From Candidatus Omnitrophota bacterium (GTDB lineage Bacteria > Omnitrophota > Gorgyraeia > Gygaellales > Profunditerraquicolaceae): DNA of 64,000 bases. This document shows, piece by piece, positions 1,566-21,007 of the stretch (position 1 is the first letter of the stretch; every line of letters begins with the position of its first letter). Location of the stretch: assembly GCA_023227985.1 (NCBI GenBank), contig JALOCB010000006.1:2631-66630 (forward strand). Reading direction: 5' to 3'. A program made the position numbers and the translations under genes. The notes below the pieces were generated by a model, which searched no databases, was not told the DNA's origin, and saw only the letters and a list, made by a program, of their open reading frames with translations.

Positions 1566-2155
1566 ATTAGCGCTACTTGTTTTCTGGTTTTCTCAATTGT
1601 GCCGCTGTTATCTATTACAAAATCCGCTAAACGGACCTTAGACTTTAAGGACAATTGCGCGCCTATCCTTTTTAAGATCTCTGGTCTAGACAGGGATGTT
1701 TTTTGGGCAAGCCTTTTCAATTGCCTGCCGCGGGAAAGAGCTACCACGATGATCTTATCAACAAGCTTATCCAGTCCTGCTTCGATAAGCAAAGGTGCGT
1801 CCACCACAACAACGTCGTTCTTGGCTGACTTGACCCTCCTTTTAACTTCGCGGATGACCGCAGGATGGGTTATCCCGCACAACCGCTTCAGCGCTTTCGG
1901 ATCGGAGAAAACGATACCGCCTAATTTTCCCCGGTCGATCGCGCCGTTGTTATTCTTCAAGATATCCCTGCCAAAGGCCTTCAAGATCTTTTTATATACC
2001 AACGTGCCTGGCGCGATAAGGCTATGGTTTATCTTATCCGCGTCAATGACGCCGGCGCCGTAACCGGCAAGGATCCCGGCTACAGTGCTTTTACCCGTGC
2101 CGAAACCGCCGGTCAACCCCAGAACGATCTTCTTATTTTCCTTTGGCTCTCTCAT
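1541..2155 (-). CDS. coaE: Dephospho-CoA kinase
   Basis: 204 aa. P-loop [12 protein letters not shown] at the N-terminus. Typical CoaE length and fold motifs. Confidence 0.85.
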
Positions 2156-3548
2156 ACAACTGCACGTATTTCTTGGCAGACTCGTTCCAGGAAAAATTGC
2201 ATTTCATCCCGCTGGCTACCAGTTCCTGCCAGGACTTCTTTGCCTTAAAGGCCTTGACCGCTTTTTTAACGGTGCTGATCAGGTCATCCTTGCTGTACTT
2301 ATCAAAGACAAAACCGTTCTTCGGCGTCACCGTATCCGCCAATCCTCCGGTCTTGAAAACCAACGGTACTGTCCCGTATTTCAGGCTGATCATCTGTCCC
2401 AAGCCGCATGGCTCGTATTTCGAAGGCATCAGGAATATATCCGATCCGGCGTATATCCGGTGAGCGAGACAATCGTCGAATTTCAAAAACAGCGATATAA
2501 CCTTAGGGTATTTCTTAACCATCGCTTCCATAACCTGGTGGTATTTCAGGTCGCCGGTCCCCAGAATGGCCATCTGCAGGTCCATCTTGCAGATCGTGTC
2601 GATCCCTGCAGCAAGGATATCAAAGCCTTTCTGCTGGGCCAGCCGCGAGACAATCCCGAATAAAGGGACATTCTGTTTAACCGGCAGCTTGCACATCTTC
2701 TGCAGGGCCTCTTTATTCTCGGCCTTGCCTTCCATATCCTTGAGCGAAAACCCTTTTACCAGGTTCTTATCGGTTGCCGGGTCCCAGATGGAATAATCCA
2801 GGCCGTTGATTATCCCGAAAAGCGAATTCCTGCGCTGGTTAAGGATGCCCTCCATCCCGAAACCGAATTCTTTGGTCTGTATCTCCTTGCTGTAGGTGTC
2901 GCTTACGGTATTTACGATATCCGAGAATACGATCCCGCCTTTAAGGACATTGACCTTATCGTAGTACTCCAGCTTATTCATGGTAAAGACATCCCAATCA
3001 AGCCCGAGCTTGGGAAATTCTTCCTTGGCGAACAAGCCCTGGTATCCGATATTATGGATGGTAAATATTGTTCTGGTCTTTTTATAAAAGTCGTCTTCGG
3101 CGTAAAGTGTTCTTAAATACACCGGGATCAAGGCTGACTGCCAGTCATGGCAATGAATGATATCCGCATTGAATTTCAGCTCCTTCAATAACTCCAGGGT
3201 CCTGCGGCTGTAATAAGCGAACCTGTCCAGATTGTCCTTATAATCTCCCGACTTATCGCCGTAAAGCTCCTGCCTGTCGAAATACTTATCGCTATCTATG
3301 AAATATACCTTTATGCCTTTACCGATCCGGGAACAGGAGATCCCTTCTTTTAATGTTTTTATTGCCGGGGCTTTCAGATCATGCACTTTTTTATACCCGG
3401 GCATGACTATGATCACTTCCTGGCCAAGTTTTTCCAGGGCTAAAGGCAACGCGCCGCCGACATCGGCCAACCCTCCGGTCTTGGCGAACGGTACTACCTC
3501 ACTTGCGCATATCGCTATCTTCATCCTGACCCTCCTTAATGAGCACAT
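2133..3548 (-). CDS. glgA: Glycogen synthase (GT5, ADP-glucose type)
   Basis: MKIAICASEVVPFAKTGGLADVGGALP is the KTGGL motif. GT-B fold with C-terminal GLGQM/FKTGGLADTV motifs. The likely true start is the MKIAI methionine at 3524. Confidence 0.9.
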   Translation of the reverse strand: MCSLRRVRMKIAICASEVVPFAKTGGLADVGGALPLALEKLGQEVIIVMPGYKKVHDLKAPAIKTLKEGISCSRIGKGIKVYFIDSDKYFDRQELYGDKSGDYKDNLDRFAYYSRRTLELLKELKFNADIIHCHDWQSALIPVYLRTLYAEDDFYKKTRTIFTIHNIGYQGLFAKEEFPKLGLDWDVFTMNKLEYYDKVNVLKGGIVFSDIVNTVSDTYSKEIQTKEFGFGMEGILNQRRNSLFGIINGLDYSIWDPATDKNLVKGFSLKDMEGKAENKEALQKMCKLPVKQNVPLFGIVSRLAQQKGFDILAAGIDTICKMDLQMAILGTGDLKYHQVMEAMVKKYPKVISLFLKFDDCLAHRIYAGSDIFLMPSKYEPCGLGQMISLKYGTVPLVFKTGGLADTVTPKNGFVFDKYSKDDLISTVKKAVKAFKAKKSWQELVASGMKCNFSWNESAKKYVQLYERAKGK

Positions 3549-6576: not shown

Positions 6577-6591
6577 GAGGAACCGTCCCCT
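6577..6591. repeat. Right arm of the 15-bp inverted repeat (gaggaaccgtcccct); overlaps the stop codon of the giant gene
   Basis: Perfect reverse complement of 6397..6411. The TAG stop of the 6590..14779 ORF lies inside the arm. Confidence 0.7.
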
Positions 6592-9500
6592 AGCCGAGTT
6601 GAATAAGGATCTCTTTCAACTGGCCGCAGGTCGGCAAAGCGTCTTCTTCTTCCGCCTTAAGGATATCCGCCACGCAATTAGTAACCGCCTGGATCTGTTT
6701 AGAGCTATCCGGCCTGGCATTGCAGCAGGCGACATATTCCTGGATCTTTAAATACGGCATTGGCCCCTGAACCATTGATGCGCGGATCTCCATCCACTGT
6801 TTATCCAACTCTTCCAGCGCGACCGCTCCGGTAAGATTCGGCATGACCGGTATCCTCACCCCGCCTATTGCCGGCTGGCTAACTATCGGCATTCCGCGGA
6901 AATCAATACCGCCAAGTGGAGCCTGTGTTTTATCCCCACCGTCAAAAACATTATCGCCGTTATTTGTTTCTCCGCTGGGACTGCTTTTGTATTCCCGCAC
7001 ATCCCCGGTGTGTTTATCATTACTATCCCGCTTAACCTTACCCTCAGTATCCCACGCATTAAAACGTTCACCCGTAGGCATTTTGCTGCCGCCGTCCGTA
7101 TTGCTTACCGGTAACCCACTCGGCACAACCACTTGCTTATCAATTCCAACCACTACGATATCATTATTTAATTCATTTATCTTTATTTGTATCGGGAAAA
7201 CGTGATTAACCAGAACGCTTTTCTCACTTTGTTCGACCGAAGGGATAGATAATATTGTAATAGTATCAGAAGGCGTCTCTTTATACCCTATTGTTATCGG
7301 TCCATCAACGGATACATCCCCGATCACAGTCAACCTGCCGACGAAATACGCGGAGAGTTCGCCCCGGCCGATGCGTTTAGCCAGGATCATAGCCAGATCC
7401 CGGGCTTTCTTGTAATCATAAGAACCGATATTTTTGAGATTGTTTTTCAGGCCTTGAGTCGAATATATACCCGTCCCGCCGTCAGAGAGCGGGCCATTCA
7501 ACAAAACCATCATTACGCCGCTTTCGCGATACAGGACTTCTTTATTCTTCAAAATAAAATCCTTACCCGCAGGCAGGGCTATAAGCAGCCGCGCCGCTTT
7601 CAATTGCGCCTCAAAAGAAACTGTATCGTCGGTTAAAATGTCCAGCAAAGGCTTAATCTCCGGAGAATACAACGCCGCCTTCGCGTACAATTCTTGAAGT
7701 TCCGCCGATCCCCCGTCTTTTTTCTGTTTCGCAATATCCATAAGAGCAGTCAGCGCTTCTTCACGGATCGCCGCTTTTATAGTCTGATCTGTGGTAACAA
7801 ACATCAACGGGGTAAACGCAGCCGTACCTATTGCTACCAATGCCCGGCATATCGCGTAACGGTTATTAGGCATAGTTTCCGTTTTTAACGCCGCGATCAA
7901 CGGAGCAACCGACCTTTTATCTTTCCTTTGGGCCAAATCCCTGGCCGCGCTGCCGCGATTCGCTGAATTAGTATCCTTTAATTGATTATGTAAATACGCT
8001 ATGTCTGTTATACTCCCGCCGTCACGAATGTTCTTTTCCGCGAAACTCGCGTCGGTTTTAGCCAGATATCCAACCACAGCGGTAAAAAATCCGGCCATCT
8101 CAGTTTCCGATGCCTGCGCTGTAAGATCAGAAGTGAGCAACACGACCTTACGTTTGTTCTTAATCATTGATTGGACCGTCCCCAGGGTCTGAGCCTTGAT
8201 CATACTATCGGAAAAACCCCGAATATCTTTCAATAGACCGAACTCTGTGGGCTGGATCGCCTGCAAAGGAAGGAAATATGTGGAAAAGAACATATTCTTT
8301 CCATCTTCGATGTTCTGCTGATACGCGTGGTTCTTATCCGGGCCTACCCCCAATTTAGCGGGCATTTTTAGACCGCGGGTGAACACCTCGGCACGGACTT
8401 TTTCAAATATCTCTTTGAGATTATCAGTCATGTTGCCATATGAGGTGAATTCCCCAGCCTCGATCTTATGCTTAAGCAAAAGGATAATTGCCGCATAAAC
8501 AGCAGCAGGATCTTCCATTGTAGAACCGAATGCGCGCACTTGATCATTAATATCATTGATATTTACGGCCCCCATCTGGATCAACGGATCATAATAAAGA
8601 GTTAAAACACCTTTCTTGCTTGACGCCTGGTAGATATTATTAAGAACTTTTTTAACATTCCCTCCGGCGCTTATAATCTCCTTATCCATCAGCTTTGAAG
8701 CGATCTTGTATCCCTCTACCGCCGGCTGATTAACGAAACAGATATCCCACAGATACCCGAATGCTGCTACCGCTCTTTGCATACCGAGCATCAAACCGCC
8801 GATATCTTCAAGATCATTCAATGAGATTTCATACGTTGGGTATCCGTTATCCTCAAGATACTTCCAGAGATTTGCCTGAGGCTTTCTTATGCCCAGATTG
8901 ATACGCAGGAACACACGGTCATTCGAATCAACGGGGTTAAGGACAGAAACATCCAAGTTTTCTTCATCGTAGAACAACGTGATGCCTTTCCCGAACTTTC
9001 CCAAGGATTCCTCGATCAACTGTTCAGCCCACATCGGATATGATTTCAACGCCGCTGGGACAATGATCGTCAGCTTATCTTTATTAAGATCCTTAGCCAT
9101 ATGCAGCATGAAAGCGCCGAGACGGAGAAATGGATCATCTTTGATACTGTTCATCTCGATAGCGTTATCAATAATAGGGACGATCAACTCCGGAGCGACA
9201 ACAGCCATGGGAAGAAGGAACACATTGGTGCCCGGAGCGGTGAATCTTCCGCCGACATCTCCGCGGCCATTAAGCTGGATCTCCCTCTGGCGCATTGCCG
9301 GATTTTCCTGTGCTTCAACTCCCCATGGGGAAATAGTATCGGTAATGAACCAAAGATTCTTCTGCGTATCCAAACCCAAGGTATTATACACATCCTCGAA
9401 ATATTTACGGTGCGCGACAGTTTCGGGAGTTGTAGCCGATTTCGAGATCAGGACTATCGCTGTCTTATCCAAAGCCGCCTTTAAACTGCCTTCCTTTTCC

Positions 9501-12500
9501 GCTATTTCCTTCAACATGAGTGTTATGACCGTAGGGTCGGTAGTCCTCAAACTGTATATATTTTCAGCCGCTTCATTCTTGAACGTATCTTTGACGAACT
9601 GGACGCTCAAGCCCGACCCGCCCATGCCGCAGAAAATAACGTATTTATATTTTTCCTTGAGTTCTTTCCCGTCATTGATCACATCTTCAAGCGTCCTGCC
9701 GGCTGAACCGTCGCGGATCGCTTTAAGATTCGTTATGGTCCAACCCAGCCTGTTCACCCATTCGCCTTTAAGCAGCTCAAAACCAAGTTCGGATAATTTA
9801 CCATTACCGATCTTCTTTACGGCTTCATACGAAGCGCCGTTAGCCGCCCCTTCCAGCTGGCTGGTAAAATCATTAGCTTTAAGTTGATCAAGCAATTTAT
9901 TGACCTCAAAACCATATGCCTCCCCGCCGTCGCGAATGACCGGAGCGTTACGCCTGATATAAGCCAGATCTTCCTTTAACTGCGGCTCGACCCTGGCAAA
10001 GAACCGGTCATTTGTATCTTTGGTGAACGGCCTGTCGCCTATCCGCGCTAACAGCGCTTTTACAGCCGGATCCTTGCTCTTAAACCCGGCAAGAACAGCA
10101 TTGATCTCCGCGTCAGTAAGGAACATCTCGATCTCCGGCGGAAGCCCCTTGTACCTGTCGACAATAACCCTGAGCGCGGCTCTCGTACTGCCGCCATCAC
10201 GAGTTTCAGGAACAGCGGTTTTCAGATATTTTACCGCGTCTTCTGTAGCAGCGAATTTTTCGGCAGCGTTCTTTTCAATATCCTCTATGCCGGCTCCGCT
10301 GAAAAGATCGGATAACGCCTTGGTCTCCTGGGCTTCTATGCGGATGGATTTCGGGTTCAATCCGGGTTTTTCATTCCTTAATTTCAAGAACATCGATAAC
10401 ATCACCTCGGTCAATACCCGCAGGTCTTCGCGGCTGCGCGAATGAGCGCCAAAAGCGATCTTTTCCGAGGTATTCGACCAGCCCCAGTAAAATATCCCTA
10501 GCGGCGTCATAAAATAATAAACGCCCTCGATATCAACCAAAGTGAATGTTTCTTTCTGGCCTTCAAACTTTTCCCAATTTACGTATTCAAAATCTTTATC
10601 ACCGGAAAACGCCTTAGTCACAACATCCCGCCACTCGTTCATCAGGTGTTTCTTGTATTGTTCCTGCATTGAGGTTCTTTGTTCGCTGAGTGAATACCAC
10701 TGGCTGAACGCGCCTTTCTGCCGCAGGTCCTTCAAATAATCATCCAAAAGCCATTTAGGCTGCTGATGTTTTTCCCTGATGGCGGTAAAAGCCTCCAGCC
10801 AGCTGTACATAAAACGCATAGCGTCGTCGATACAAGCCCCGGTATCTATGGTAATGAACGGGTGCAAAGAATATTCCATCTGGTAGTTCTTATATCCTGT
10901 GGCCTTCACAAAATCCTCAACGGAAGCGAACCCTTTTTCTTTGGCGAGTTTCGTCATCAATATTTCTACGGTTTTCTTTTCCTTGGAATGCCCTTTGGTA
11001 TGGATTATCGCAGTACCCCCTAAATAATCCACCAATTCGGCTATAGAAGGTATCATCCGCGAATCATAATAGATTTTTTTATGGTCCTGTCCGTATTTAC
11101 CCAGGGCATACTCGATCACCGGATAAAACAGGATATCGCCTTTATAAAGCTTTCCGGCTATAACAATACCGCAGCGGTCAGTATCAAGGTCGAATGAAAA
11201 GACAACCACATCCGGATTCCTGGCAGACCAGGATAGGATACTCTCATCACCGGCGGATTTAGGATGACCCAGGCATTTGTCATCGTCCCGGGAAGGATCT
11301 GGCAGGCCTTTTGTGCAAGTTGGGTCGGACTGAGCCCTGAAAACATTCACCAGCTTGGAACCCAGGGTACCTTTAACATAATCCACATAGCTGGTCGCTG
11401 AGCCTCCGCCGAAATCCACGGCGATCTTGATATCCATATCCTTGAGTTTGTTAATAAGAGCTGTAAATTCAACGTTCAGCTTTTCCTTATATATATCGGT
11501 GATCTTGCCCTGCAACTCCTGGGTATTGATAAACGCGCCCATATCCTTAGCGTCCATGACCCTCAAACCGCTATCCGCGCTGTCCCCGGCGATCTGCTTG
11601 CCCAGGACCTGGATCATATCCCCGAAAAGCGTGGTCTTGCCGATGATCGGTTTAAACCCGTTTATACCGACCTCTACATGCGAACGAGTAACATAGAACC
11701 CGCCCTGTACACCCAAGCGGGAAACCGTGGTATACAATTGGCCGCTTATACAAGTATCCAGATCTATTACGTTGATCCCGGCAGCACGCAAACCCAAAGC
11801 CAGGTATTTGCGCATTTTCGGGGTTGTCGGTCCATTATCACCGGCTATTATAAAGGTATCGCCTGGTTTTAATCCTTCAGTGCCATGGTGCGAATCAAAC
11901 TTTGATGTTCCCAGGGCAATACCCAGTAAAACCAGCATTTCCGGGGTAAAATATTCGTCGTTGCCGCGGACATCATATTCTTTAAGGACTGAAGACAGTT
12001 TCTTCTTTATCTCCTGCAATCCCTCATAGGTCACGGTTATTGTTTCATCAGGGGTTGTGATAACCAAAGGTTTCTCCGGAGTAATCCTAAATAAACCCGG
12101 GGCCTGTCCGGGGTTTTTTATCTGCCCGTTGATGATCGATTTAGCCTGGCTGATCAATTCGTCGGCCTTTCCGCCGTCGAAATTGGCAGAGACTCCGCCT
12201 TTATCCAGCCTCTGATTGATCTTTGCGGACGCTTCTTCTATCGCTCTTTTCATGAGGATATCGTTGCCTTCCGGCTGGCTGGCGAATGCTTCCAATGTCC
12301 TGCGCTCGCCGGTTCTCTCTCCTAAGACCTTAACCGCATTAAGCCTGATCAACCTGTTATTACCGGTATCTTTAAAAGCTGCGATATATATCCGCTCTAT
12401 ATCCCGATTATTAAGCCCCAATTGTTTTAAAGACATCTCAGCCGCGGGATAAATGTCGTAATTATCACCCAGCACAGTCCAGACCAAATATTCTCTTAAA

Positions 12501-14779
12501 TACGGTATCGCTTTAGCATCTCCAAGCTTGCCCAGGATACGCGCAGCATCCTCTTTATTTCTACGCATAGTCCGCGGATCGCTAATTTCTTTAATATATT
12601 TATTCGCCTGCCACGGGATAACCGTACTTTTCCACAACGAAACGAACGTCCGGATGAAGATATTGGCCGGATCATACTTATTCTCGCGCAGCAATCCGTT
12701 GTCCGCAGCGCCGCCGTCAGGCGTTCCAGGCTCAACAGGTACGCCGAATTTCAGATCGCGCAGGGAAAAATCTCCCATAACGCGGTCAAGCCAAGGCAGA
12801 GCTCCCTTATGCAGAAAGTAACCGATTGCGCCCAAAGACAACCCCACAGATACGCATATCACCAATATTTTTACCGGTAACGGCATGAACATTGAAACAG
12901 CAATACCTATCAAGCCCGAACCCAAACCTGCCCCCATAAGCTTTCTGGTAGGATATTCCTTGCTGGACTGCTCTTTTACAAATGCCTTGAATTCATCGAA
13001 CTCCGCCCGGTTGTTAAAACTGCTCTCAAACTCAGCCTGTATGGAATCCAGATGATTTTCCCAGGTATAACCGGAAATAGCCGCATCAAAATCATCAATT
13101 CTTTCCAGCAGAGCTAAACCACCAAGTTTACGAAGCAATTTTCCCTTTCGTTCAAGAGAAAGAATCCCTGCCCCTTGTGCGCTTCCTCCATCACGATGGG
13201 AATTACCCAGTATTTTCCCGACTTCACTGTAATATTCGCTTGTAAGATCGCGCACAGGGATATCCCTGGCGATCAATTTATAGAAACTATACCCGCCGGC
13301 TATCCCTAACAATGCTGTCACCGCCGACCCCATGATCATCGGCAAAAACACTGGCCCGGTTATCAGTAACGCCCCAAGAGTTAATCCCCCGACAATCGCA
13401 AATGCACCAAGCATAAGCGCGGTGTTGGCTTTCCTGGCAAAAAACCAATCATCCAGGTCTTTTGTATTGATCGCCGCCAGCGCCGTATTAATCTCATTCT
13501 GCGTGTATTTATTATCCTGAATAAGGGTTTTAATCCGCGCCAGACGCCGGTCCACAAAGTCCCGGTCAGCCGAGCGCATCCAATTGATCTCTTGGATGGC
13601 GGAACTGAGTTCATCGGTCCTGGAACGCTTTGGGGCAAAAACGCCGCCGTCACGGGTTTGTTGATCCTTATGTACCGGTTGGTAATTCTTACCCTCAACC
13701 GCCAGAACATCAGCGGGCACGATCGAAGTTTTCTGAGGGATTACCGCGATTTCAGTGACAGTATCAGGTATAAGCATAATACCGCCGCTAAAATATCTGC
13801 GCACGGTTATCCCGTTCAGGCTGTTCACGGTTTCCCGGGTATTATATTCACCGTCAACAAAAGATTTCCGATAGGCATTAAAATAATTATCTTTAGACCA
13901 GGCGCTGCGCGAGGAAAGTCCGGCAAGGTCCTCCTTGTTTATCCGGCGGCTGTATTCCGCAGGCATATTTATGGCATTCTTCTTGAACCATTGGGCCAGG
14001 ACTATGGAATAATATACCTGCCTCAAGGGCGCGTACTCCTTGGCGCTGTTAATTTTTTTGGTTAATTTAGGGAGGATTGCCTCGCGGATCAAACCGGAAG
14101 AATATTCATTCAACTCCTTAAGGCGCGGATCGTCAAATCCATAAGTAGCGGAATTCTTCAGGTGATCCTGCTCCAGCATAACCTTTAAGGTCGCTTTATA
14201 CACATACGCGCTGTCAGCCGACTGCTTGACGATTATCTCGCCCGGAACTATCCAGGGGCGGGTCAAGGTGGGGATATTGATCTTTTGGTTTCCTAAAAGG
14301 CTTTCAGCCTTTTCGTACAGCCTCTTCCAATAGATCTTTCCTTCCCTGGTCTTGGGAGAAGTGGCCATAGCCATATCTTTTTTCAACTGAAGGTCTGCTT
14401 CCAGGAGTATCTTCCCGATATCAGTATTCTCCAATGCCGGGTCAATGATATCACTCTTGCCGTCCGGACGCAGATTAACCCAGAAAGTATTATTAGGCAA
14501 AGTCACGCCGATCTGAAAATATTCCATCAGTTTGGCTATAGACCCCTTAAGCTGCGCCGGCTTAACATTCTTATTGTCGCCTTTATCAAGCAAAAGGGTG
14601 AAATCATCCTTGATCCGGTCATAAACCAGGGACCTCAAATGCAAGGGGCGGAATTTATTGATCGAAGACACGCTGGAGAATGATCCGGAAAGATCAATTA
14701 CGTTCGCAACCTGGGCAAACCCAATTTGCTCGAATAAGAAAACAAAACTTATCAAAAACGCGATTATCTTTTTAAACAT
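6590..14779 (-). CDS. Giant (2,729 aa) secreted/membrane multidomain protein with PGM-like and PGI-like domains, HEAT-type repeats and four predicted TM helices
   Basis: Single uninterrupted ORF. N-terminal signal peptide (MFKKIIAFLISFVFLFEQIGFAQ). Hydrophobic helix pairs at aa ~452-500 and ~614-658. The alpha-D-phosphohexomutase-like region (aa ~935-1320) has DVRG, a TASHNP-like FYVTRSHVEVGINGFK and an FDGDxDR-like FSFDLDTDRCGIV. The PGI/SIS-like region (aa ~1700-2030) has GMGGSG, ISKSATTPET, GGRFT and VNQPAVEGYK, which resembles PGI signature 2. HEAT/PBS-lyase-like repeats lie at aa ~735-850 and ~2260-2410. DGG occurs 11 times. Confidence 0.8.
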   Translation of the reverse strand: MFKKIIAFLISFVFLFEQIGFAQVANVIDLSGSFSSVSSINKFRPLHLRSLVYDRIKDDFTLLLDKGDNKNVKPAQLKGSIAKLMEYFQIGVTLPNNTFWVNLRPDGKSDIIDPALENTDIGKILLEADLQLKKDMAMATSPKTREGKIYWKRLYEKAESLLGNQKINIPTLTRPWIVPGEIIVKQSADSAYVYKATLKVMLEQDHLKNSATYGFDDPRLKELNEYSSGLIREAILPKLTKKINSAKEYAPLRQVYYSIVLAQWFKKNAINMPAEYSRRINKEDLAGLSSRSAWSKDNYFNAYRKSFVDGEYNTRETVNSLNGITVRRYFSGGIMLIPDTVTEIAVIPQKTSIVPADVLAVEGKNYQPVHKDQQTRDGGVFAPKRSRTDELSSAIQEINWMRSADRDFVDRRLARIKTLIQDNKYTQNEINTALAAINTKDLDDWFFARKANTALMLGAFAIVGGLTLGALLITGPVFLPMIMGSAVTALLGIAGGYSFYKLIARDIPVRDLTSEYYSEVGKILGNSHRDGGSAQGAGILSLERKGKLLRKLGGLALLERIDDFDAAISGYTWENHLDSIQAEFESSFNNRAEFDEFKAFVKEQSSKEYPTRKLMGAGLGSGLIGIAVSMFMPLPVKILVICVSVGLSLGAIGYFLHKGALPWLDRVMGDFSLRDLKFGVPVEPGTPDGGAADNGLLRENKYDPANIFIRTFVSLWKSTVIPWQANKYIKEISDPRTMRRNKEDAARILGKLGDAKAIPYLREYLVWTVLGDNYDIYPAAEMSLKQLGLNNRDIERIYIAAFKDTGNNRLIRLNAVKVLGERTGERRTLEAFASQPEGNDILMKRAIEEASAKINQRLDKGGVSANFDGGKADELISQAKSIINGQIKNPGQAPGLFRITPEKPLVITTPDETITVTYEGLQEIKKKLSSVLKEYDVRGNDEYFTPEMLVLLGIALGTSKFDSHHGTEGLKPGDTFIIAGDNGPTTPKMRKYLALGLRAAGINVIDLDTCISGQLYTTVSRLGVQGGFYVTRSHVEVGINGFKPIIGKTTLFGDMIQVLGKQIAGDSADSGLRVMDAKDMGAFINTQELQGKITDIYKEKLNVEFTALINKLKDMDIKIAVDFGGGSATSYVDYVKGTLGSKLVNVFRAQSDPTCTKGLPDPSRDDDKCLGHPKSAGDESILSWSARNPDVVVFSFDLDTDRCGIVIAGKLYKGDILFYPVIEYALGKYGQDHKKIYYDSRMIPSIAELVDYLGGTAIIHTKGHSKEKKTVEILMTKLAKEKGFASVEDFVKATGYKNYQMEYSLHPFITIDTGACIDDAMRFMYSWLEAFTAIREKHQQPKWLLDDYLKDLRQKGAFSQWYSLSEQRTSMQEQYKKHLMNEWRDVVTKAFSGDKDFEYVNWEKFEGQKETFTLVDIEGVYYFMTPLGIFYWGWSNTSEKIAFGAHSRSREDLRVLTEVMLSMFLKLRNEKPGLNPKSIRIEAQETKALSDLFSGAGIEDIEKNAAEKFAATEDAVKYLKTAVPETRDGGSTRAALRVIVDRYKGLPPEIEMFLTDAEINAVLAGFKSKDPAVKALLARIGDRPFTKDTNDRFFARVEPQLKEDLAYIRRNAPVIRDGGEAYGFEVNKLLDQLKANDFTSQLEGAANGASYEAVKKIGNGKLSELGFELLKGEWVNRLGWTITNLKAIRDGSAGRTLEDVINDGKELKEKYKYVIFCGMGGSGLSVQFVKDTFKNEAAENIYSLRTTDPTVITLMLKEIAEKEGSLKAALDKTAIVLISKSATTPETVAHRKYFEDVYNTLGLDTQKNLWFITDTISPWGVEAQENPAMRQREIQLNGRGDVGGRFTAPGTNVFLLPMAVVAPELIVPIIDNAIEMNSIKDDPFLRLGAFMLHMAKDLNKDKLTIIVPAALKSYPMWAEQLIEESLGKFGKGITLFYDEENLDVSVLNPVDSNDRVFLRINLGIRKPQANLWKYLEDNGYPTYEISLNDLEDIGGLMLGMQRAVAAFGYLWDICFVNQPAVEGYKIASKLMDKEIISAGGNVKKVLNNIYQASSKKGVLTLYYDPLIQMGAVNINDINDQVRAFGSTMEDPAAVYAAIILLLKHKIEAGEFTSYGNMTDNLKEIFEKVRAEVFTRGLKMPAKLGVGPDKNHAYQQNIEDGKNMFFSTYFLPLQAIQPTEFGLLKDIRGFSDSMIKAQTLGTVQSMIKNKRKVVLLTSDLTAQASETEMAGFFTAVVGYLAKTDASFAEKNIRDGGSITDIAYLHNQLKDTNSANRGSAARDLAQRKDKRSVAPLIAALKTETMPNNRYAICRALVAIGTAAFTPLMFVTTDQTIKAAIREEALTALMDIAKQKKDGGSAELQELYAKAALYSPEIKPLLDILTDDTVSFEAQLKAARLLIALPAGKDFILKNKEVLYRESGVMMVLLNGPLSDGGTGIYSTQGLKNNLKNIGSYDYKKARDLAMILAKRIGRGELSAYFVGRLTVIGDVSVDGPITIGYKETPSDTITILSIPSVEQSEKSVLVNHVFPIQIKINELNNDIVVVGIDKQVVVPSGLPVSNTDGGSKMPTGERFNAWDTEGKVKRDSNDKHTGDVREYKSSPSGETNNGDNVFDGGDKTQAPLGGIDFRGMPIVSQPAIGGVRIPVMPNLTGAVALEELDKQWMEIRASMVQGPMPYLKIQEYVACCNARPDSSKQIQAVTNCVADILKAEEEDALPTCGQLKEILIQLG

Positions 14780-15022: not shown

Positions 15023-15517
15023 TTATTGCCCTTCTTCCAGATATTTTCCCAAAATAGCCCAGGTTTCACTGCCCACAACCCCGTCCGCGTTCAACTGGTT
15101 AGCTCTTTGGAACTCCCGGATCGCGTCTTTTGTCCTGGGGCCTATCTTTCCGTCAACATCCCCATTATAAAATTTCGCGTTCTTTAAGGCTGTCTGGATA
15201 TGTCCGGCATTCGGGACTTTTATGACGGTTTTTTCTTCACGCTGTTTCCGGACCTGGCTATTTATCTTATTCTGCGCGTCTTCTAATTTTGCCTGATTCG
15301 CTTTAAGCGCGGCCTCGGTCTTTTCCTGATCTTCCTGGACCTTAATTTCTAAACTCTGCTGCCTCTTGCTCAAGCTCTTGACCTCGGCGTCCTGGCGCTG
15401 GAATTGGCTCTCCAGCGAGATGATCCGCAATTGAGTCGCCTCCATATCCTGCACGCCCGCACAACCGGATAATAAAACAACGGAAAGGCCAACAAAGGAA
15501 ATAATAGCCAGTTTCAT
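15023..15517 (-). CDS. Lipoprotein with a coiled-coil region and a C-terminal peptidoglycan-binding domain
   Basis: Lipobox LLSGC after the signal peptide. Q/E/K-rich coiled coil. The C-terminal part (LKNAKFYNGDVDGKIGPRTKDAIREFQRANQLNADGVVGSETWAIL) matches a PG_binding_1-like repeat. Confidence 0.7.
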   Translation of the reverse strand: MKLAIISFVGLSVVLLSGCAGVQDMEATQLRIISLESQFQRQDAEVKSLSKRQQSLEIKVQEDQEKTEAALKANQAKLEDAQNKINSQVRKQREEKTVIKVPNAGHIQTALKNAKFYNGDVDGKIGPRTKDAIREFQRANQLNADGVVGSETWAILGKYLEEGQ

Positions 15518-15587: not shown

Positions 15588-17801
15588 TTATATGAGCGGC
15601 TCCATATTCAGGACCGGATGCTTTACCTTTTCCAGGTAAGCTACCAGCTCCTCGGCTGTGGTAACATTGGTCTCATCGGCTATCTGGTCAACCAGGCCGG
15701 GCATACCCAGTTCCCGGCAGCGCGTCTTCAGCTTATCGCCCAGAGCCTCTTTCAATTCCTTTGGCATCCAGACCAGCCGCGGCAGTCCGCCTTCAGCGGA
15801 AAGGAATTTCTTGCTGGCCACATAAAGCTTGCCGATACCCAGGAAACCCGGGGTCTGCACCCCTCCGCCAACCGAGCCGGCCAGCGTGGTAAAAGTCATG
15901 CCCACCGGGGTCATCCCGGGAAAATCGCGGTGCACGATCATTACGCCGTTGGCCTCAGGGACCACAGCCACAATGCATTCAAAACAGCCGCAGGACGACT
16001 GCGGGCTGTCCATCAACGAATACATACTCATCTTCTCTATCGTTTTGTTGGATTTCTCATAAACATAATCGTTTATATTCTTCCACTGCCCCAGTTTTTG
16101 ATCGAGCAATTGGCCTTTTTCCACCGGCTGATTAGGGCCGGTAGGGTTGATCTCATGCGAAGCCTTGCCGTCCAGCCAGGAATAAGCCCCGCACAGGCCG
16201 AGCCTTTCCGCGGAGATCATACACACATGGTTGGGCGCGAAACTCTGGCAAAGCGTGCAGGAATAAAAAGAGTCCACGCTTTCATCGGTCATACCCAGGA
16301 TCCTCTCATCGCGCTGATCGTAGACTTTCTTAGCCTGGGGCAAAAGCTTATCCACATCAGCCTGGCTGGTATAGATTTTTACCTGGATCTTATCCACGAT
16401 AGCGCTGTATTCCTGATGAAGCATAGCGTGCAGGATAACCCCGATATGCTTAAGGCGGAAGCCCTTATTGAACGCCTCCTGAGAAACTCTGATCCAGTTC
16501 ATATCGCGCTGGCCGATATGCATTATACCCTGGGCGTAATTGACGAACCTGTGGATCTGGCGCTCAAGTATAGGCTCGAAATCTTTTTGCATCTTCCGGC
16601 CGGCGACTTCAACCATGATCGCCAAAGGCAGAGATTTCACGCCCTTTCCCATATTATCTATATCCGGTCCGATCACCTCTACCTTCCCGTCCTCAATATC
16701 CTCTATATTCCCGCTGGTAAGGAACTCGAACGAGGCGGAAGCCTTACCGCCGAATTCAGCGAACAATTGTTCCTTGCGCACCCTTTCACCCTCAAAAGCC
16801 GCGGCGTAAGCCACCGGGACATTGATCTGGGCGACCTTAACTTTGATCCCCCTGGTAAGCAGGCATTTGGAAACCAGTTTTTTGTAGTCTTTTTCAGTAA
16901 CCAGGGCCTCATATAAAGTCGTATCGATCTTGGGCAACTGCGGCACATCCAGGTCGGTGATAATGGGCACGCCGAAGGCCAGCGCCCCCAGCCCCGCCGC
17001 CACGATGATCTCATCCACGTGGCTCAAAAGCACGATGAAAGCCGGAACCCTTTTCTGCACATAATCCGCGATACCCTGCCACTGCCCGGGTTTGAAACCG
17101 CCGTAGATGAGCGGCGCTCGGATGGCGAAGTTCACCGCGTAGATTGCCGAGAGATAATCGTCGCCGAGCGGCACAATATAGTTATCCAAGCCGATCTGCA
17201 CTCCTTTTTCTTCGAGCTGTTGGGCGAAGGTTTTGCCGTTGGCGCTGTCCCCGGCTTTATCGGAAGCGCCGGGACTCGCCGGTGCGCTGCCGCAGAGCAG
17301 GCAAACGATGCTGTTAGTCTGGAAATCGCGCACCAGCTTTTCCGCGGAATCCGCGTCCTTTGCCGGGCCGAGAATGACGGCGACGCCCGCGATGCGGCCG
17401 TCTACCAGCTGAATGCCCAACTGCCTCAGTATCTTGTCCGGGATGAAGCCGATTCCTCCCTTGGGATGCTGTTTGGTCGCGGTCAACAGCGCCGTAAGCA
17501 TTTCGATCGCCACCAGCGTGGCGCAGCCCTTGTTCAGCACCGGACCAAGCGCTCCGGGGATAGAAAAGCCGTTTGCGGGCTTGATATTCTTGTTCAGCCC
17601 CTCGGCAGCCGCCAGGATCGGCATACAGTCCCCTACAGTCTTGACCTCGGCGTTGAACAGCCCGTAGATGATGGGCAGGAAATAGTTGGTCTCGGGAAAG
17701 CCGACCGCGGTATCCTTGCCGGCCTTTTCCAGCGTTTGCCTGGTCAATGCCAATACCGCGTCCGCGCCTTTTGTTCCCATTTGAACTAATACCTCAGACA
17801 T
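15588..17801 (-). CDS. acsB: Acetyl-CoA synthase catalytic subunit (CODH/ACS subunit AcsB/CdhC type)
   Basis: 737 aa. Full-length resemblance to AcsB, including the A-cluster region SCGCFECIVAV (Cys-Gly-Cys) and an upstream Cys. Start overlaps the upstream oxidoreductase gene by 8 nt. Confidence 0.85.
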   Translation of the reverse strand: MSEVLVQMGTKGADAVLALTRQTLEKAGKDTAVGFPETNYFLPIIYGLFNAEVKTVGDCMPILAAAEGLNKNIKPANGFSIPGALGPVLNKGCATLVAIEMLTALLTATKQHPKGGIGFIPDKILRQLGIQLVDGRIAGVAVILGPAKDADSAEKLVRDFQTNSIVCLLCGSAPASPGASDKAGDSANGKTFAQQLEEKGVQIGLDNYIVPLGDDYLSAIYAVNFAIRAPLIYGGFKPGQWQGIADYVQKRVPAFIVLLSHVDEIIVAAGLGALAFGVPIITDLDVPQLPKIDTTLYEALVTEKDYKKLVSKCLLTRGIKVKVAQINVPVAYAAAFEGERVRKEQLFAEFGGKASASFEFLTSGNIEDIEDGKVEVIGPDIDNMGKGVKSLPLAIMVEVAGRKMQKDFEPILERQIHRFVNYAQGIMHIGQRDMNWIRVSQEAFNKGFRLKHIGVILHAMLHQEYSAIVDKIQVKIYTSQADVDKLLPQAKKVYDQRDERILGMTDESVDSFYSCTLCQSFAPNHVCMISAERLGLCGAYSWLDGKASHEINPTGPNQPVEKGQLLDQKLGQWKNINDYVYEKSNKTIEKMSMYSLMDSPQSSCGCFECIVAVVPEANGVMIVHRDFPGMTPVGMTFTTLAGSVGGGVQTPGFLGIGKLYVASKKFLSAEGGLPRLVWMPKELKEALGDKLKTRCRELGMPGLVDQIADETNVTTAEELVAYLEKVKHPVLNMEPLI

Positions 17802-18699
17802 TTAAACCTCCTATTGCTTGGCTTATATTATCCGCTAAGCGGACGCTTTCATTTAAAACATCATCCCAATTCTTTGTTTTATCCGGCAAGCCTTGGGCCC
17901 CGGCTGCCGCTCCGCAGGCAAAAACATTTTTCAGGTTAGTACGCAAGTTGGCATCCACGCATACGCCGCCCCCGGATAATTCAATATCCGTGTCTTTTAG
18001 GAAATCTACGGCCGGTTTGGCCGGGCTGTCGAATACAACCACCAAAGAGGCGCCGATGATCTTGCCCTCTTTAAGCTTTATCGCCTGGACCCCGGACTCG
18101 CCGATTATATCAGTCACCTTGCTGTTAATAAACTCCAAATGCTGCATCTGCGCCGGGCCTTCGACAGGCTGTTCGGTCACCGCCTTAACCTCTTTCTGCT
18201 GGCCGGTGATCGCTTTGGCGATCTCTTGCGCCCAGGGATTCCACCCCAGGAAACACACTGTATCCGAAGATAAGAGATATTTGCGCGCCTGTTTAAAATC
18301 GTTTAATGAATCCAACCGGATCACGCCCTCTTTATTTATGCCGGGTATATCCGGCAGCGTTGTTTTAACCCCGGAGCAGATGACCAAAAAGTCATATTCG
18401 GCGTTTCCCCGGGTTTCCTCGTGTTTAAAGTAAACCAGGCGGCGGTTGGTATTAATGCCGTAAACTTTTCTCTCTTTCAGGAATTTTATGTTCTGGCCGG
18501 CGTAATGATCGGCGTTAACAAGGTAAAGCTCTTTTTCTTTGGTCCCGCCTGCCAGATACGCGGGCAGCTTGCGTTTGTCATAACAAGGGGACGGTTCATC
18601 GGTGATCAGGGTTATTTCGCAATCCTTGTTCTTTTGCCGCAAAGAAATAGCCGCTGTATGTCCGGCGATCGACGAACCGATAATAATTATTTTAGGCAT
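17794..18699 (-). CDS. Short FAD-dependent pyridine nucleotide-disulfide oxidoreductase (Nox/CoADR-like, single Cys)
   Basis: N-terminal IIIIGSSIAGHTAA (FAD Rossmann fold). SPCYDKRKLPAY is an SxxxC...LPY-like single redox Cys. A second dinucleotide site is VCFLGWNPWAQEIA. A C-terminal FACGAAAG is present. At 301 aa it lacks the usual dimerisation domain. Confidence 0.6.
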   Translation of the reverse strand: MPKIIIIGSSIAGHTAAISLRQKNKDCEITLITDEPSPCYDKRKLPAYLAGGTKEKELYLVNADHYAGQNIKFLKERKVYGINTNRRLVYFKHEETRGNAEYDFLVICSGVKTTLPDIPGINKEGVIRLDSLNDFKQARKYLLSSDTVCFLGWNPWAQEIAKAITGQQKEVKAVTEQPVEGPAQMQHLEFINSKVTDIIGESGVQAIKLKEGKIIGASLVVVFDSPAKPAVDFLKDTDIELSGGGVCVDANLRTNLKNVFACGAAAGAQGLPDKTKNWDDVLNESVRLADNISQAIGGLNV

Positions 18700-18704
18700 G
18701 TTTA

Positions 18705-19583: not shown

Positions 19584-19671
19584 CCCTGTTTATGTTACGG
19601 CTGGTTTCCCGTTCACGCGGGATATTGATTAAGGACTTTATTTTAACCGTAATACGCGTTTTTGTCAAAAA

Positions 19672-20838: not shown

Positions 20839-21007
20839 AAAACTGACCTTACCATTTTTTAAAGATAACGGGAACCTCCAGGGGGATCACATCCTGGATG
20901 GTTTTAACTGCGTGGCGGATAACTGGCAGGAACCGATACGGTTAGCCGGGGCATAGGAGCAGTATTCAGCCAGCGCTATCATACATCTGGCCATTATAGC
21001 AGTATAC

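What the first reader, a model, noticed from the sequence alone, without database searches (positions are those of the whole stretch)
6590..14779. 8.2-kb gene encoding a 2,729-aa exported/membrane protein that fuses PGI-like and PGM-like domains with HEAT repeats
A single uninterrupted ORF spans 13% of the window. Its translation combines features not normally found together.
- A cleavable-looking signal peptide.
- Two pairs of TM helices at aa ~452-500 and ~614-658.
- HEAT-type helical repeats at aa ~735-850 and ~2260-2410.
- A phosphohexomutase-like block. It keeps DVRG, an active-site-Ser-like TRSH and a metal-loop-like FDLDTDR.
- A glucose-6-phosphate isomerase-like SIS block. It has GMGGSG, SKSATTPET and GGRFT, and VNQPAVEGYK matches the PGI catalytic-Glu signature.

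Sugar-phosphate isomerase and mutase modules embedded in a giant envelope-associated scaffold are, to my knowledge, not a described architecture. The surrounding genome also carries glgA, glgP and a GH57 branching enzyme. Whether the catalytic residues sit on the cytoplasmic or the extracytoplasmic side is unresolved from sequence.
Basis: partly seen in the sequence, partly recalled or inferred. Interest (0 to 1): 0.88.

Follow-up and report, generated by a model that had tools for sequence, protein, structure and literature searches.

The report
Modular exported enzyme-string protein of Omnitrophota
The 8.2-kb gene is real and encodes one member of a very large family found almost only in Omnitrophota, in which complete enzymes (here a sugar-phosphate mutase and an isomerase) are strung as swappable cassettes between fixed head and tail domains, joined by a short Asp-Gly-Gly motif at which cassettes are gained and lost.

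Summary
The ORF (window 6590-14779, minus strand, 2,729 aa) and every listed feature are confirmed. The same full-length ORF occurs in three independent Omnitrophota MAGs, so it is not a chimera.

The novelty claim fails. Preprints from 2023 and 2026 already report PGI, PGM, HEAT and TM segments in giant Omnitrophota proteins.

What I did not find in that literature:
- The protein belongs to a family of about 7,700 sequence clusters. All share an N-terminal signal-like segment plus a ~320-aa domain with no known fold. Most also share a C-terminal GGIDFR..P motif plus a four-helix bundle.
- Between these brackets lie cassettes separated by DGG: 11 sites here against 1.2 expected.
- Cassettes are complete enzymes. 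The PGI cassette is colinear with free-standing ~600-aa Omnitrophota enzymes and keeps 106 of 114 of their invariant residues.
- Cassette order differs between relatives.
- Two strain-level indels run exactly from one DGG to the next, with breakpoints inside the shared GACGGNGG codons.

Strong cysteine depletion plus the signal peptide favour export. K/R-rich hairpin flanks argue the opposite. Enzyme activity, membrane side and any cleavage at DGG remain untested.

The parts
6590..14779 (-). Whole ORF, 2,729 aa plus stop codon. It is its own transcription unit.
   Evidence: Identical to MCK9594461.1.
14714..14779 (-). Signal-peptide-like N-terminus, aa 1-22 (MFKK + 12-residue hydrophobic core + EQIGFA). 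The FEQxGFAQ motif is conserved across the family.
   Evidence: Hydropathy. Q18, G20, A22 and Q23 are at least 90% conserved in alignment A1.
13745..14713 (-). Family-defining N-terminal domain, aa 23-345. The folded core is about aa 41-333; aa 335-376 are disordered.
13193..13642 (-). Cassette aa 380-529: helical region plus hydrophobic helical hairpin (aa 455-495).
   Evidence: The same cassette type recurs at other positions in P0002 and P0016.
12719..13183 (-). Cassette aa 533-687: helical region plus second hydrophobic hairpin (aa 614-656).
12179..12709 (-). HEAT-repeat cassette, aa 691-867.
   Evidence: Pfam HEAT_PBS and HEAT_2. Recurs as a unit in P0004.
10199..12169 (-). Phosphohexomutase-superfamily (PGM-like) cassette, aa 871-1527. 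Carries TRSHVEV, FDLDTDR, MEYSLH and WSNTSEK.
   Evidence: Belongs to a rare ~600-aa subfamily that conserves these motifs.
9932..10189 (-). Small helical cassette, aa 1531-1616, function unknown.
   Evidence: Homologous cassette in P0006 at 377-476. No Pfam hit.
8024..9922 (-). PGI-like cassette, aa 1620-2252. It is a complete copy of an Omnitrophota-type ~600-aa glucose-6-phosphate isomerase.
   Evidence: The ends coincide with the termini of free-standing proteins. 106 of 114 invariant residues are kept.
7718..8014 (-). HEAT-repeat cassette, aa 2256-2354.
   Evidence: Pfam HEAT_2, E 9e-13.
7484..7708 (-). Helical cassette, aa 2358-2432. It is tandemly duplicated in a sister strain.
   Evidence: P0321 carries a 78-aa (234-nt) duplication running exactly from DGG-2355 to DGG-2433.
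7097..7474 (-). Uncharacterised cassette, aa 2436-2561.
   Evidence: No Pfam hit. Conserved at 81% in P0006.
6944..7087 (-). Low-complexity linker segment, aa 2565-2612.
6593..6934 (-). Family-defining C-terminal module, aa 2616-2729: GGIDFRGMP motif (aa 2623-2631), a variable linker, then a four-helix bundle (aa ~2655-2729) with 4 Cys.
13643..13651 (-). DGG junction 1 (aa 377-379). The other ten lie at 13184-13192, 12710-12718, 12170-12178, 10190-10198, 9923-9931, 8015-8023, 7709-7717, 7475-7483, 7088-7096 and 6935-6943.
   Evidence: 11 DGG against 1.2 expected. Only 4 DGG occur in all other ORFs of at least 150 aa in the window. 7 of the 11 are encoded GACGGCGG.

Best explanation
The gene encodes a member of a very large family found almost only in Omnitrophota, built on one plan.
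- Head: a Sec-type signal-like N-terminus and a conserved ~320-aa domain of unknown fold.
- Tail: a GG[IV]D[FLM]R..P motif followed by a ~75-aa four-helix bundle.
- Between them: a variable string of self-contained cassettes.

In this lineage, successive segments are separated by Asp-Gly-Gly, usually [KR]-DGG-[ST]. The string here runs: two hydrophobic-hairpin cassettes, HEAT, a PGM-like phosphohexomutase, a small helical cassette, a complete ~630-aa Omnitrophota-type PGI, HEAT, and two further small cassettes plus a low-complexity linker.

Shown:
- The brackets and the DGG-delimited cassettes exist.
- The PGI cassette is colinear end to end with free-standing enzymes and keeps their invariant residues.
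- The PGM-like cassette keeps its subfamily's Ser-His and Asp-x-Asp-x-Asp-Arg loops.
- Cassettes sit at different positions and in different combinations in relatives.
- Cassettes are gained or lost between near-identical strains, with breakpoints inside the DGG codons (GACGGNGG microhomology).

Inferred:
- The protein is exported through Sec and held at the membrane by the two hairpins.
- It presents two consecutive hexose-phosphate enzymes (G1P <-> G6P <-> F6P) on HEAT spacers.
- The shared in-frame junction codons let cassettes be duplicated, deleted and exchanged without breaking domains.

Not established: enzyme activity, the side of the membrane, and whether DGG is also a proteolytic site.
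For: Family and brackets:
- 119 of 119 relatives share only aa 1-345, and 110 also share the last ~115 aa.
- The N-domain profile finds 7,739 clusters, always at residues ~1-350.
- 424 stretches in GTDB genomes encode it, nearly all in Omnitrophota, with several paralogues per genome.

Junction motif:
- 11 DGG against 1.2 expected in the query, and 501 against 93 across the family, with K/R at -1 in 53% of sites.
- DGG divides the protein exactly at domain borders.
- BLAST segment ends between relatives fall on DGG sites, and cassette positions and combinations differ.
- All paralogues of a genome either use DGG or lack it.

Strain-level indels:
- P0321 (99.6% identical) has a 234-nt duplication from DGG-2355 to DGG-2433. 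The junction lies inside GACGG.GG.
- P0040 and P0332 (99.2% identical) differ by 195 aa, from DGG-2858 to DGG-3053. The junction lies inside a shared AAAGACGGCGGCAC.

Enzymes:
- establish the PGM and PGI assignments.
- Free-standing ~600-aa PGIs are 45-51% identical over 97% of the cassette and lack signal peptides. Their termini match the DGG borders.
- 106 of 114 invariant residues are kept.
- P0306 fuses the C-terminal part of a PGI to the same PGM-like subfamily.

Export:
- The n-h-c N-terminus is conserved.
- Cys content is 0.34% in the family against 1.25% in neighbouring genes (p 1e-32), and 0.48% against 1.56% in this window.
- All 10 embedded PGI cassettes keep only 2 Cys, although they interleave with free-standing forms in a tree.
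- That exported bacterial proteins exclude cysteine is drawn from my own knowledge of the literature, not tested here.
Against: - Sugar phosphates are cytoplasmic metabolites. Other family members carry ATP- or SAM-dependent domains (kinases, HATPase, radical SAM, CheY) that make little sense outside the cell.
- Both flanks of the hydrophobic hairpins are K/R-rich: 2.2-2.3 per 10 aa against 1.23 background, n = 55. By the positive-inside rule this places the bulk of the protein in the cytoplasm, which contradicts the signal peptide.
- No signal-peptide or topology predictor could be run.
- Only two strain-level indels were examined. Indels elsewhere would be purged by selection, so breakpoints at linkers are partly survivorship.
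- The GACGGC codon bias is partly a general codon-context effect. DGG in non-family genes is 44% GACGGC against 77% in the family (p 4e-4).
- About half of the family lacks DGG. Some of those use [AS]SSP[VLI], with little nucleotide conservation.
Confidence: 0.6

Rival explanations
1. Polyprotein precursor. The string is cut at each [KR]DGG by a lineage-specific protease, for example a double-glycine (C39-type) or ubiquitin-protease-like enzyme. This would release separate PGM, PGI, HEAT and hairpin proteins. The DGG motif would be primarily a processing site.
For: - A short, invariant motif with a preferred basic residue before it sits in small-residue linkers at every cassette border.
- Cassettes equal whole free-standing enzymes.
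- The motif type is genome-specific, as expected if it co-evolves with a trans-acting factor.
- Other lineages use a different motif at the same positions.
- West-Roberts et al. proposed cleavage of giant Omnitrophota proteins by C39/S8 peptidase domains and noted that the cleavage points were unknown.
Against: - No peptidase domain occurs in this protein, and no protease is a conserved neighbour.
- There is no proteomic evidence.
- The motif is also explained as a helix-stop/N-cap hinge and as recombination microhomology.
- About half of the family has no such motif.
Confidence: 0.25
2. Cytoplasmic, membrane-tethered metabolon. The hairpins dip into the inner membrane from the cytoplasmic side. 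All enzyme cassettes face the cytoplasm and channel G1P from glycogen phosphorylase to F6P. The N-terminal hydrophobic segment would not drive export of the whole chain.
For: - Hairpin flanks are K/R-rich, which by the positive-inside rule places them inside.
- The substrates are cytoplasmic.
- glgA, glgP and a GH57 branching enzyme are in the same genome region.
- Free-standing homologues are cytoplasmic-type.
- Nielsen & Lui read many such proteins as cytoplasm-facing.
Against: - The N-terminus has a short 12-residue h-region and a GFA|Q site typical of cleaved Sec signals, and it is conserved family-wide.
- With an even number of TM helices, the cargo lies on the same side as the head domain.
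- Cysteine is depleted about 3.7-fold relative to neighbouring cytoplasmic proteins.
Confidence: 0.25
3. Prey-directed surface or effector protein, a small relative of the 'Archaeovorins'. It would be displayed on, or delivered from, a predatory or episymbiotic Omnitrophota cell. The hairpins would insert into a target membrane, and the enzymes would process metabolites released from or inside the host cell.
For: - Same phylum and same domain vocabulary as the giant proteins linked to predation.
- Signal peptide and cysteine exclusion.
- Rapid cassette turnover and many paralogues per genome, as in conflict-related families.
Against: - No adhesin, lytic or toxin domain is present here.
- The gene sits among housekeeping genes with no secretion-system neighbour.
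- The lifestyle of this particular MAG is unknown.
- Isomerase and mutase are odd effectors.
Confidence: 0.2
4. The PGM-like and PGI-like cassettes are pseudoenzymes that serve as sugar-phosphate or glycan-binding modules on a structural scaffold.
For: - All NCBIfam scores are far below the equivalog cut-offs (123.6 against 712; 65 against 600).
- The PGM loop reads TRSHVE rather than TASHNP, and Pfam does not detect PGM domains III and IV.
Against: - The PGI cassette keeps 106 of 114 residues that are invariant in free-standing homologues, including all catalytic motifs.
- The TRSHVEV, FDLDxDR, E.S.H and SNTS.K loops are conserved across the PGM-like subfamily, including free-standing ~600-aa proteins in Deferribacterota (Geovibrio).
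Confidence: 0.1
5. Assembly chimera, or frameshifted neighbouring genes read as a single ORF.
For: The ORF is unusually long for a bacterial gene, and the window comes from a metagenome-assembled genome.
Against: - Three independent assemblies carry the same ORF at 99.6-99.9% identity with the same neighbours.
- Thousands of relatives have the same head-cargo-tail plan.
- Composition is unremarkable.
Confidence: 0.02

Closest known systems
Archaeovorins (giant Omnitrophota proteins; West-Roberts et al. 2023, bioRxiv 10.1101/2023.11.21.568195)
   Same: Same phylum. Signal peptide and TM helices. HEAT repeats are the commonest domain. PGI, PGM/PMM, TIM and FBA domains are occasionally embedded and predicted to lie outside the cell. 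The function is unknown and cleavage is suspected.
   Different: Archaeovorins exceed 30,000 aa and are defined by glycosyltransferase, glycoside hydrolase, peptidase, methylase and NUDIX content. This protein has 2,729 aa and none of those domains. In the sections and keyword passages I read, that paper describes no conserved head or tail domains and no junction motif, and it says cleavage points are unknown.
'Multi-enzyme metabolic cluster' class and sugar-metabolism Pfam module of long Omnitrophota proteins (Nielsen & Lui 2026, bioRxiv 10.64898/2026.06.07.730766)
   Same: Many distinct enzyme Pfams tile one SP+TM polypeptide. PGM domains (PF02878-80) are part of a recurring sugar module. 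The inside/outside question is equally unresolved there.
   Different: Their catalogue covers proteins of at least 10,000 aa and is based on Pfam co-occurrence. It does not define the head/tail-bracketed family of 640 to about 6,400 aa. It does not report the DGG junctions or cassette indels (in the passages I read).
Free-standing ~600-aa Omnitrophota glucose-6-phosphate isomerases (e.g. MFC1620987.1) and the PGI half of bifunctional transaldolase/PGI (NCBIfam NF007080)
   Same: 45-51% identity over 97% of the cassette. GMGGSG, SKS.T.ET, GGR, QP.VEGYK and GPDKNH are conserved. 26-28% identity to transaldolase/PGI.
   Different: Those proteins are soluble, lack a signal peptide, and some carry a tRNA_bind domain. 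Here the enzyme is an internal cassette with only the two motif-embedded cysteines.
alpha-D-phosphohexomutase superfamily (PGM/PMM/GlmM)
   Same: Domain I-III homology. The Ser-His of the phosphoserine loop and the DxDxDR metal loop align with solved enzymes.
   Different: The cassette belongs to a rare ~600-aa subfamily of unknown specificity with TRSHVEV in place of TASHNP and a divergent C-terminal part. Its nearest free-standing relatives share only 27-29% identity.
Sorted exported proteins with an N-terminal signal and a conserved C-terminal sorting module (T9SS CTD, LPXTG/sortase, PEP-CTERM/exosortase)
   Same: The plan is the same: signal peptide, variable cargo, then a short conserved motif plus a conserved C-terminal module shared by many paralogues.
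   Different: This is analogy only. The tail here is a soluble four-helix bundle, not a beta-sandwich or a TM helix. No sorting-enzyme gene was found and no NCBIfam sorting-signal model matches.

Membership tests
Head/tail-bracketed cassette family of Omnitrophota (unnamed; defined here) | N-terminal signal-like segment with FEQxGFAQ followed by the conserved ~320-aa domain | tested here: met
   The query is the first row of alignment A1, which has 58% mean column identity. The domain sits at the N-terminus in 119 of 119 relatives.
Head/tail-bracketed cassette family of Omnitrophota (unnamed; defined here) | C-terminal GG[IV]D[FLM]R..P motif plus a four-helix bundle at the extreme C-terminus | tested here: met
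   Alignment A2 and the AF2 model. Present at or near the C-terminus in 110 relatives.
Head/tail-bracketed cassette family of Omnitrophota (unnamed; defined here) | Cassettes separated by a lineage-specific junction motif (DGG type) | tested here: met
   11 sites against 1.2 expected, all at domain borders.
Archaeovorins (West-Roberts et al. 2023) | Giant size (gene over 90 kb, protein over 30,000 aa) | tested here: not met
   2,729 aa.
Archaeovorins (West-Roberts et al. 2023) | Consistent content of glycosyltransferases, glycoside hydrolases, peptidases, methyltransferases and NUDIX hydrolases | tested here: not met
   Pfam and NCBIfam find only HEAT, PGM and PGI.
Archaeovorins (West-Roberts et al. 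2023) | Omnitrophota origin with HEAT repeats and TM helices | tested here: met
alpha-D-phosphohexomutase superfamily | Phosphoserine loop (T-x-S-H-x-x) and DxDxDR metal loop | tested here: met
   TRSH and FDLDTDR align with 3uw2 and 5kl0.
alpha-D-phosphohexomutase superfamily | Four-domain architecture with a sugar-binding loop (domain III) and a phosphate-binding loop (domain IV) | tested here: inconclusive
   Pfam domain I passes. Domain II scores 22.9 against a cut-off of 29.3. Domains III and IV are not detected. NCBIfam alignments reach domain III. MEYSLH and WSNTSEK are conserved in the subfamily, but I matched them to the canonical loops only by eye.
alpha-D-phosphohexomutase superfamily | Mutase activity on a hexose phosphate | not testable with these tools
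   Needs an enzyme assay.
Glucose-6-phosphate isomerase (SIS-type PGI) | SIS-domain motifs and the catalytic Glu (in the Q-x-x-V-E-x-x-K motif; QPAVEGYK here) and His | tested here: met
   SKSATTPE, GGRFT and NQPAVEGYK align with 7nss and 1zzg. GPDKNH is invariant in the subfamily.
Glucose-6-phosphate isomerase (SIS-type PGI) | Score above the curated equivalog or Pfam PF00342 threshold | tested here: not met
   The best NCBIfam score is 123.6 against a cut-off of 712. PF00342 is not reported for the query. This is therefore a divergent subfamily, not a canonical equivalog.
Sec-exported protein with a cleavable signal peptide | n-region with positive charge, 7-15-residue h-region, and a c-region with small residues at -3 and -1 | tested here: inconclusive
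   The sequence MFKK / IIAFLISFVFLF / EQIGFA|Q fits by inspection and hydropathy. No SignalP-type predictor was available. Cysteine exclusion supports export, whereas K/R-rich hairpin flanks argue against it.

The most novel reading that the evidence does not exclude
The DGG-type junction may serve two roles in a bacterial combinatorial cassette system.
- At the DNA level, the shared in-frame GACGGNGG codons would let whole enzyme cassettes be duplicated, deleted and swapped among many paralogues.
- At the protein level, the same motif would be the processing site of a Sec-exported polyprotein.

Together these would give host-dependent Omnitrophota a rapidly reshuffled set of cytoplasmic-type enzymes that work outside the producer's cytoplasm, in the periplasm, on the surface or in prey.
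Probability: 0.15. Interest if true: 0.9.

Novelty: new variant of a known kind. Interest (0 to 1): 0.66.

Why it matters
Large multi-enzyme membrane proteins are a hallmark of Omnitrophota, and their function and processing are open questions. The authors of the 2023 study said they could not segment these proteins because cleavage or module borders were unknown.

The junction motif and the fixed head and tail give three things:
- An objective way to cut thousands of these proteins into cassettes.
- A concrete, testable candidate processing site.
- Direct population-level evidence for how the cassette repertoire changes.

The strong cysteine exclusion, if it reflects export, means that complete glycolytic and glycogen-node enzymes operate outside the cytoplasm of a bacterium. 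That would be unusual cell biology and is relevant to how ultra-small host-dependent bacteria feed.

Tried and rejected
Searches that returned nothing useful:
- Upstream PG_binding_1 lipoprotein (15023-15517) as a dedicated partner. It is found next to only one other family locus.
- Any conserved neighbour, such as a protease, transporter or sorting enzyme. The recurrent neighbours are rsmI, glmS, gyrA/B and dnaN, which reflects plain synteny.
- Fold of the tail. Only generic helical repeats and designed bundles match.
- Pfam on separate tiles. Nothing is found for the head, tail, hairpin or small cassettes.

Leads considered and dropped:
- A purely nucleotide-level motif. The GACGGCGG bias is real (90 of 116 sites), but DGG in non-family genes is also often GACGGC (14 of 32). 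SSP[VLI] junctions show little codon conservation. The motif is therefore selected at least partly as a peptide.
- Assembly chimera, rejected on the evidence.

The literature searches found no description of the head and tail domains or of DGG. The search is limited to open-access text.

Full report
**1. The observation.** The ORF listing and translation confirm one uninterrupted ORF on the minus strand, 6590..14779, 2,729 aa with an ATG start.
- It has its own upstream spacer. A terminator-like hairpin closes the preceding gene. An AT-rich stretch follows, and AGGGGG lies about 5 nt before the ATG.
- Base composition is unremarkable.
- Hydropathy finds an N-terminal hydrophobic core (aa 5-23) and two helical hairpins (455-495 and 614-656).
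- Pfam finds HEAT_2 (2261-2345, E 9e-13), HEAT_PBS (744-765), PGM_PMM_I (932-1045, E 2e-8) and a sub-threshold PGM_PMM_II.
- NCBIfam finds the PGI half of transaldolase/PGI over 1706-2214 (E 6e-36) and PGM/PMM models over 930-1281 (E 5e-18). All scores are far below the equivalog cut-offs.
- In alignments to solved structures, TRSH falls on the catalytic Ser-His loop and FDLDTDR on the DGDGDR metal loop of PGM/PMMs.
- SKSATTPE, GGRFT and NQPAVEGYK fall on the corresponding PGI motifs.
- glgA, glgP and a GH57 branching enzyme are in the window.

**2. Not an artefact.** The exact protein is MCK9594461.1 from an Omnitrophota MAG.
- Two further independent assemblies carry it at 99.9% (MFA5373178.1) and 99.6% (MDD5079824.1) identity.
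- For the 99.6% copy, whose locus I read, the neighbours are the same: ACS beta subunit, a 164-aa PG_binding_1 lipoprotein, and polA.

**3. What it belongs to.** A search of 5.8 billion proteins returned 493 significant hits among the 8,000 candidates scored. The listed ones are 1,500-4,500 aa, and nearly all that carry a source name are labelled Omnitrophota/Omnitrophica.
- Mapping the hits on the query shows that 119 of 119 share only aa 1 to about 345 (50-60% identity). 110 also share the last ~115 aa. The middle is matched by only a handful.
- The head is always at the N-terminus, and the tail always ends within about 40 residues of the C-terminus.
- A profile of the head finds 7,739 clusters (at 50% identity) among 1.84 billion representatives, 6,438 of them with E at or below 1e-30. 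The match always lies at residues ~1-350, in proteins of about 450 to 6,439 aa.
- In GTDB species genomes, 424 stretches encode the head. Nearly all are in Omnitrophota MAGs, and the few other labels sit mostly on short contigs. Several paralogues occur per genome, some in tandem.
- Complete head-plus-tail members in those loci range from 640 to 3,692 aa.
- The window's own MAG probably has at least one more paralogue, MCK9594094.1. I infer this from the adjacent accession series.

**4. Head and tail.**
- The head has a conserved signal-like start (FEQxGFAQ) and 60-odd invariant residues.
- AlphaFold2 gives a confident alpha/beta model (pLDDT 79, pTM 0.73; aa 335-376 disordered).
- Neither PDB sequences, Pfam nor NCBIfam match the head.
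- The tail is a disordered GGIDFR..P motif and a variable linker, followed by a four-helix bundle with pLDDT about 95. The bundle resembles only generic helical repeats.

**5. The junction motif.** DGG occurs 11 times in the query against 1.2 expected, and it is the most frequent tripeptide. Only 4 DGG occur in all other ORFs of at least 150 aa in the window.
- The sites divide the protein into 12 segments that coincide with the domains:
  - head;
  - two hairpin cassettes;
  - HEAT;
  - PGM-like (657 aa);
  - a small helical unit;
  - PGI-like (633 aa);
  - HEAT;
  - one further small helical cassette and one uncharacterised cassette;
  - a low-complexity linker;
  - tail.
- Across 120 family members there are 501 DGG against 93 expected. 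K/R precedes the motif in 53% of sites, and small residues lie upstream.
- About half of the members use DGG. About a quarter instead use [AS]SSP[VLI] at equivalent places. The rest have neither.
- Within a genome, all paralogues either use DGG or lack it.

**6. Cassettes are complete enzymes.** The PGI cassette has free-standing homologues of about 600 aa in Omnitrophota. Versions of 713-726 aa are fused to a tRNA_bind domain.
- These homologues are 45-51% identical over 97% of the cassette and have hydrophilic N-termini.
- Their first and last residues align with aa 1619-1626 and 2239-2252, which are the DGG borders.
- Of 114 columns at least 95% invariant in 38 free-standing proteins, the cassette keeps 106, including every catalytic motif.
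- Embedded and free-standing forms interleave in a distance tree, so capture or release happened repeatedly.
- The PGM-like cassette belongs to a rare ~600-aa phosphohexomutase subfamily. Its nearest free-standing relatives, such as a Geovibrio protein, are 27-29% identical.
- That subfamily conserves TRSHVEV, FDLDxDR, E.S.H and SNTS.K.
- One protein (P0306) joins the C-terminal part of a PGI directly to this PGM-like type, an independent link between the two activities.

**7. Cassettes move, and DGG is the breakpoint.**
- Between relatives, BLAST segments start and stop at DGG sites: q688-876, q868-1533, q376-536, q1532-1631, q2433-2729 and q2613-2729. The same cassette sits at quite different positions.
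- MDD5079824.1 differs from the query by one 78-aa (234-nt) tandem duplication running exactly from DGG-2355 to DGG-2433. The two copies are 229/234 nt identical. The novel junction lies inside the GACGG.GG shared by the two sites.
- P0040 and P0332 (99.2% identical) differ by one 195-aa indel running exactly from DGG-2858 to DGG-3053. The junction lies inside a shared AAAGACGGCGGCAC.
- These were the only two internal indels among the near-identical pairs I examined. The other length differences were start-codon calls.
- DGG is encoded GACGGCGG at 7 of 11 sites here and at 90 of 116 sites in 15 other members. The third base of the second Gly codon is free.
- Part of this bias is general codon context. 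DGG in non-family genes is GACGGC in 14 of 32 cases, against 96 of 124 in the family (p 4e-4).
- SSP[VLI] junctions show little codon conservation.
- I infer that the repeated in-frame junction codons act as microhomology for slippage or unequal exchange. Selection against domain-breaking indels certainly contributes to the pattern too.

**8. Which side of the membrane?** The evidence conflicts.
- For export:
  - The N-terminus has the n-h-c form of a cleaved Sec signal and is conserved.
  - With four TM helices, the cargo lies on the same side as the head.
  - Family proteins contain 0.34% Cys against 1.25% in neighbouring genes (p 1e-32). This protein has 0.48% against 1.56% for 22 housekeeping genes of the window.
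  - All 10 embedded PGI cassettes retain only the two motif-embedded Cys, whereas free-standing homologues have 0-10.
  - That exported bacterial proteins exclude cysteine is established knowledge I bring from memory.
- For a cytoplasmic location:
  - Both flanks of 55 family hairpins are K/R-rich, 2.2-2.3 per 10 aa against 1.23 background. By the positive-inside rule this puts the flanks inside.
  - The substrates are cytoplasmic.
  - Other family members carry ATP- or SAM-dependent domains.
- The same puzzle is stated in both preprints.
- I lean towards export, at roughly two to one.

**9. Comparison with what is known.**
- West-Roberts et al. 2023 described 'Archaeovorins' of more than 30,000 aa with HEAT repeats, TM helices and, less commonly, TIM, PGI, FBPase, PGM/PMM and FBA domains. 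They said cleavage points were unknown.
- Nielsen & Lui 2026 catalogued proteins of at least 10,000 aa and found a sugar-metabolism Pfam module that includes PGM.
- An eLife 2025 paper also notes gigantic multi-domain TM proteins in Omnitrophota.
- The domain combination is therefore known in kind.
- This protein fails the Archaeovorin definition on size and on GT/GH/peptidase content.
- I did not find described, within the open-access text I could search:
  - the head- and tail-bracketed family;
  - the lineage-specific junction motif;
  - the one-to-one match between cassettes and free-standing enzymes;
  - cassette indels with breakpoints in the junction codons;
  - the cysteine exclusion.

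**10. Verdict.** The object is a new variant of a known kind.

Best mechanism (confidence 0.6): an exported, hairpin-tethered string carrying a phosphohexomutase and a PGI on HEAT spacers, built from cassettes that are reshuffled in frame at the DGG codons. Whether DGG is also a protease site (polyprotein, about 0.25) and which side of the membrane the enzymes face are the decisive open points. Both are directly testable.

Noticed in passing
window 15023-15517 (-): A 164-aa lipoprotein (lipobox LLSGC) with a coiled coil and a PG_binding_1 domain sits immediately upstream of the giant gene. It is conserved there in the sister MAG (L080) but is not a general neighbour of the family.
   Followed up: yes
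window 15588-22454 (-): Wood-Ljungdahl-type genes are clustered: ACS/CODH beta subunit, a pyridine nucleotide-disulphide oxidoreductase, MTHFR, FolD and an FTCD_C cyclodeaminase. A tRNA U5-methyltransferase-like gene is interposed.
   Followed up: no
window 2133-3548, 36882-39371, 54953-57599 (-): Cytoplasmic glycogen genes are scattered through the window: glgA, glgP, and a GH57 branching enzyme followed by a DUF4912 protein. No free-standing pgi or pgm is present in the 64 kb.
   Followed up: partly
window 27146-36435 (-): A run of signalling genes: a hybrid histidine kinase, a double-receiver protein, a histidine kinase, a 942-aa HAMP/PAS hybrid kinase, and a PilB/MshE-type T2SSE ATPase with a C-terminal receiver domain.
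   Followed up: no
window 60635-62476 (-) and 28427-29392 (+): A 614-aa minus-strand ORF has no Pfam family at E <= 1e-5. A 322-aa plus-strand ORF with no hit overlaps minus-strand genes and is probably spurious.
   Followed up: no
whole window: GC skew is negative in every 2-kb bin, and almost every gene lies on the minus strand. The window therefore appears to lie within one replichore, with genes co-oriented.
   Followed up: no
proteins P0230, P0232, P0234-P0237, P0239, P0241 (related sequences): Free-standing Omnitrophota PGI-like enzymes of 713-726 aa carry a tRNA_bind (PF01588) domain. At least one of them is annotated in NCBI as 'methionine--tRNA ligase subunit beta', which looks like a misannotation.
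   Followed up: partly
protein P0306 (930 aa, 13.5-kb contig): The ORF begins with the C-terminal part of a PGI (GQHSFYQLIHQG) and continues into the same rare PGM-like subfamily. This is an independent PGI-PGM-like fusion without the family head, and the ORF is probably 5'-truncated.
   Followed up: partly
DGG sites of the query and of loci L001-L079: Asp and the first Gly of DGG are encoded GAC GGC far more often than elsewhere (GAC 90% against 37%; GGC 85% against 40%). The second Gly codon is unbiased. DGG in non-family genes shows a weaker form of the same bias, so the cause is only partly explained.
   Followed up: yes
loci L002, L010, L031, L016/L044: Family members occur in tandem arrays: up to four head-domain ORFs within 20 kb, and two genes about 15 kb apart on one contig.
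   Followed up: partly
[not shown]
   Followed up: no
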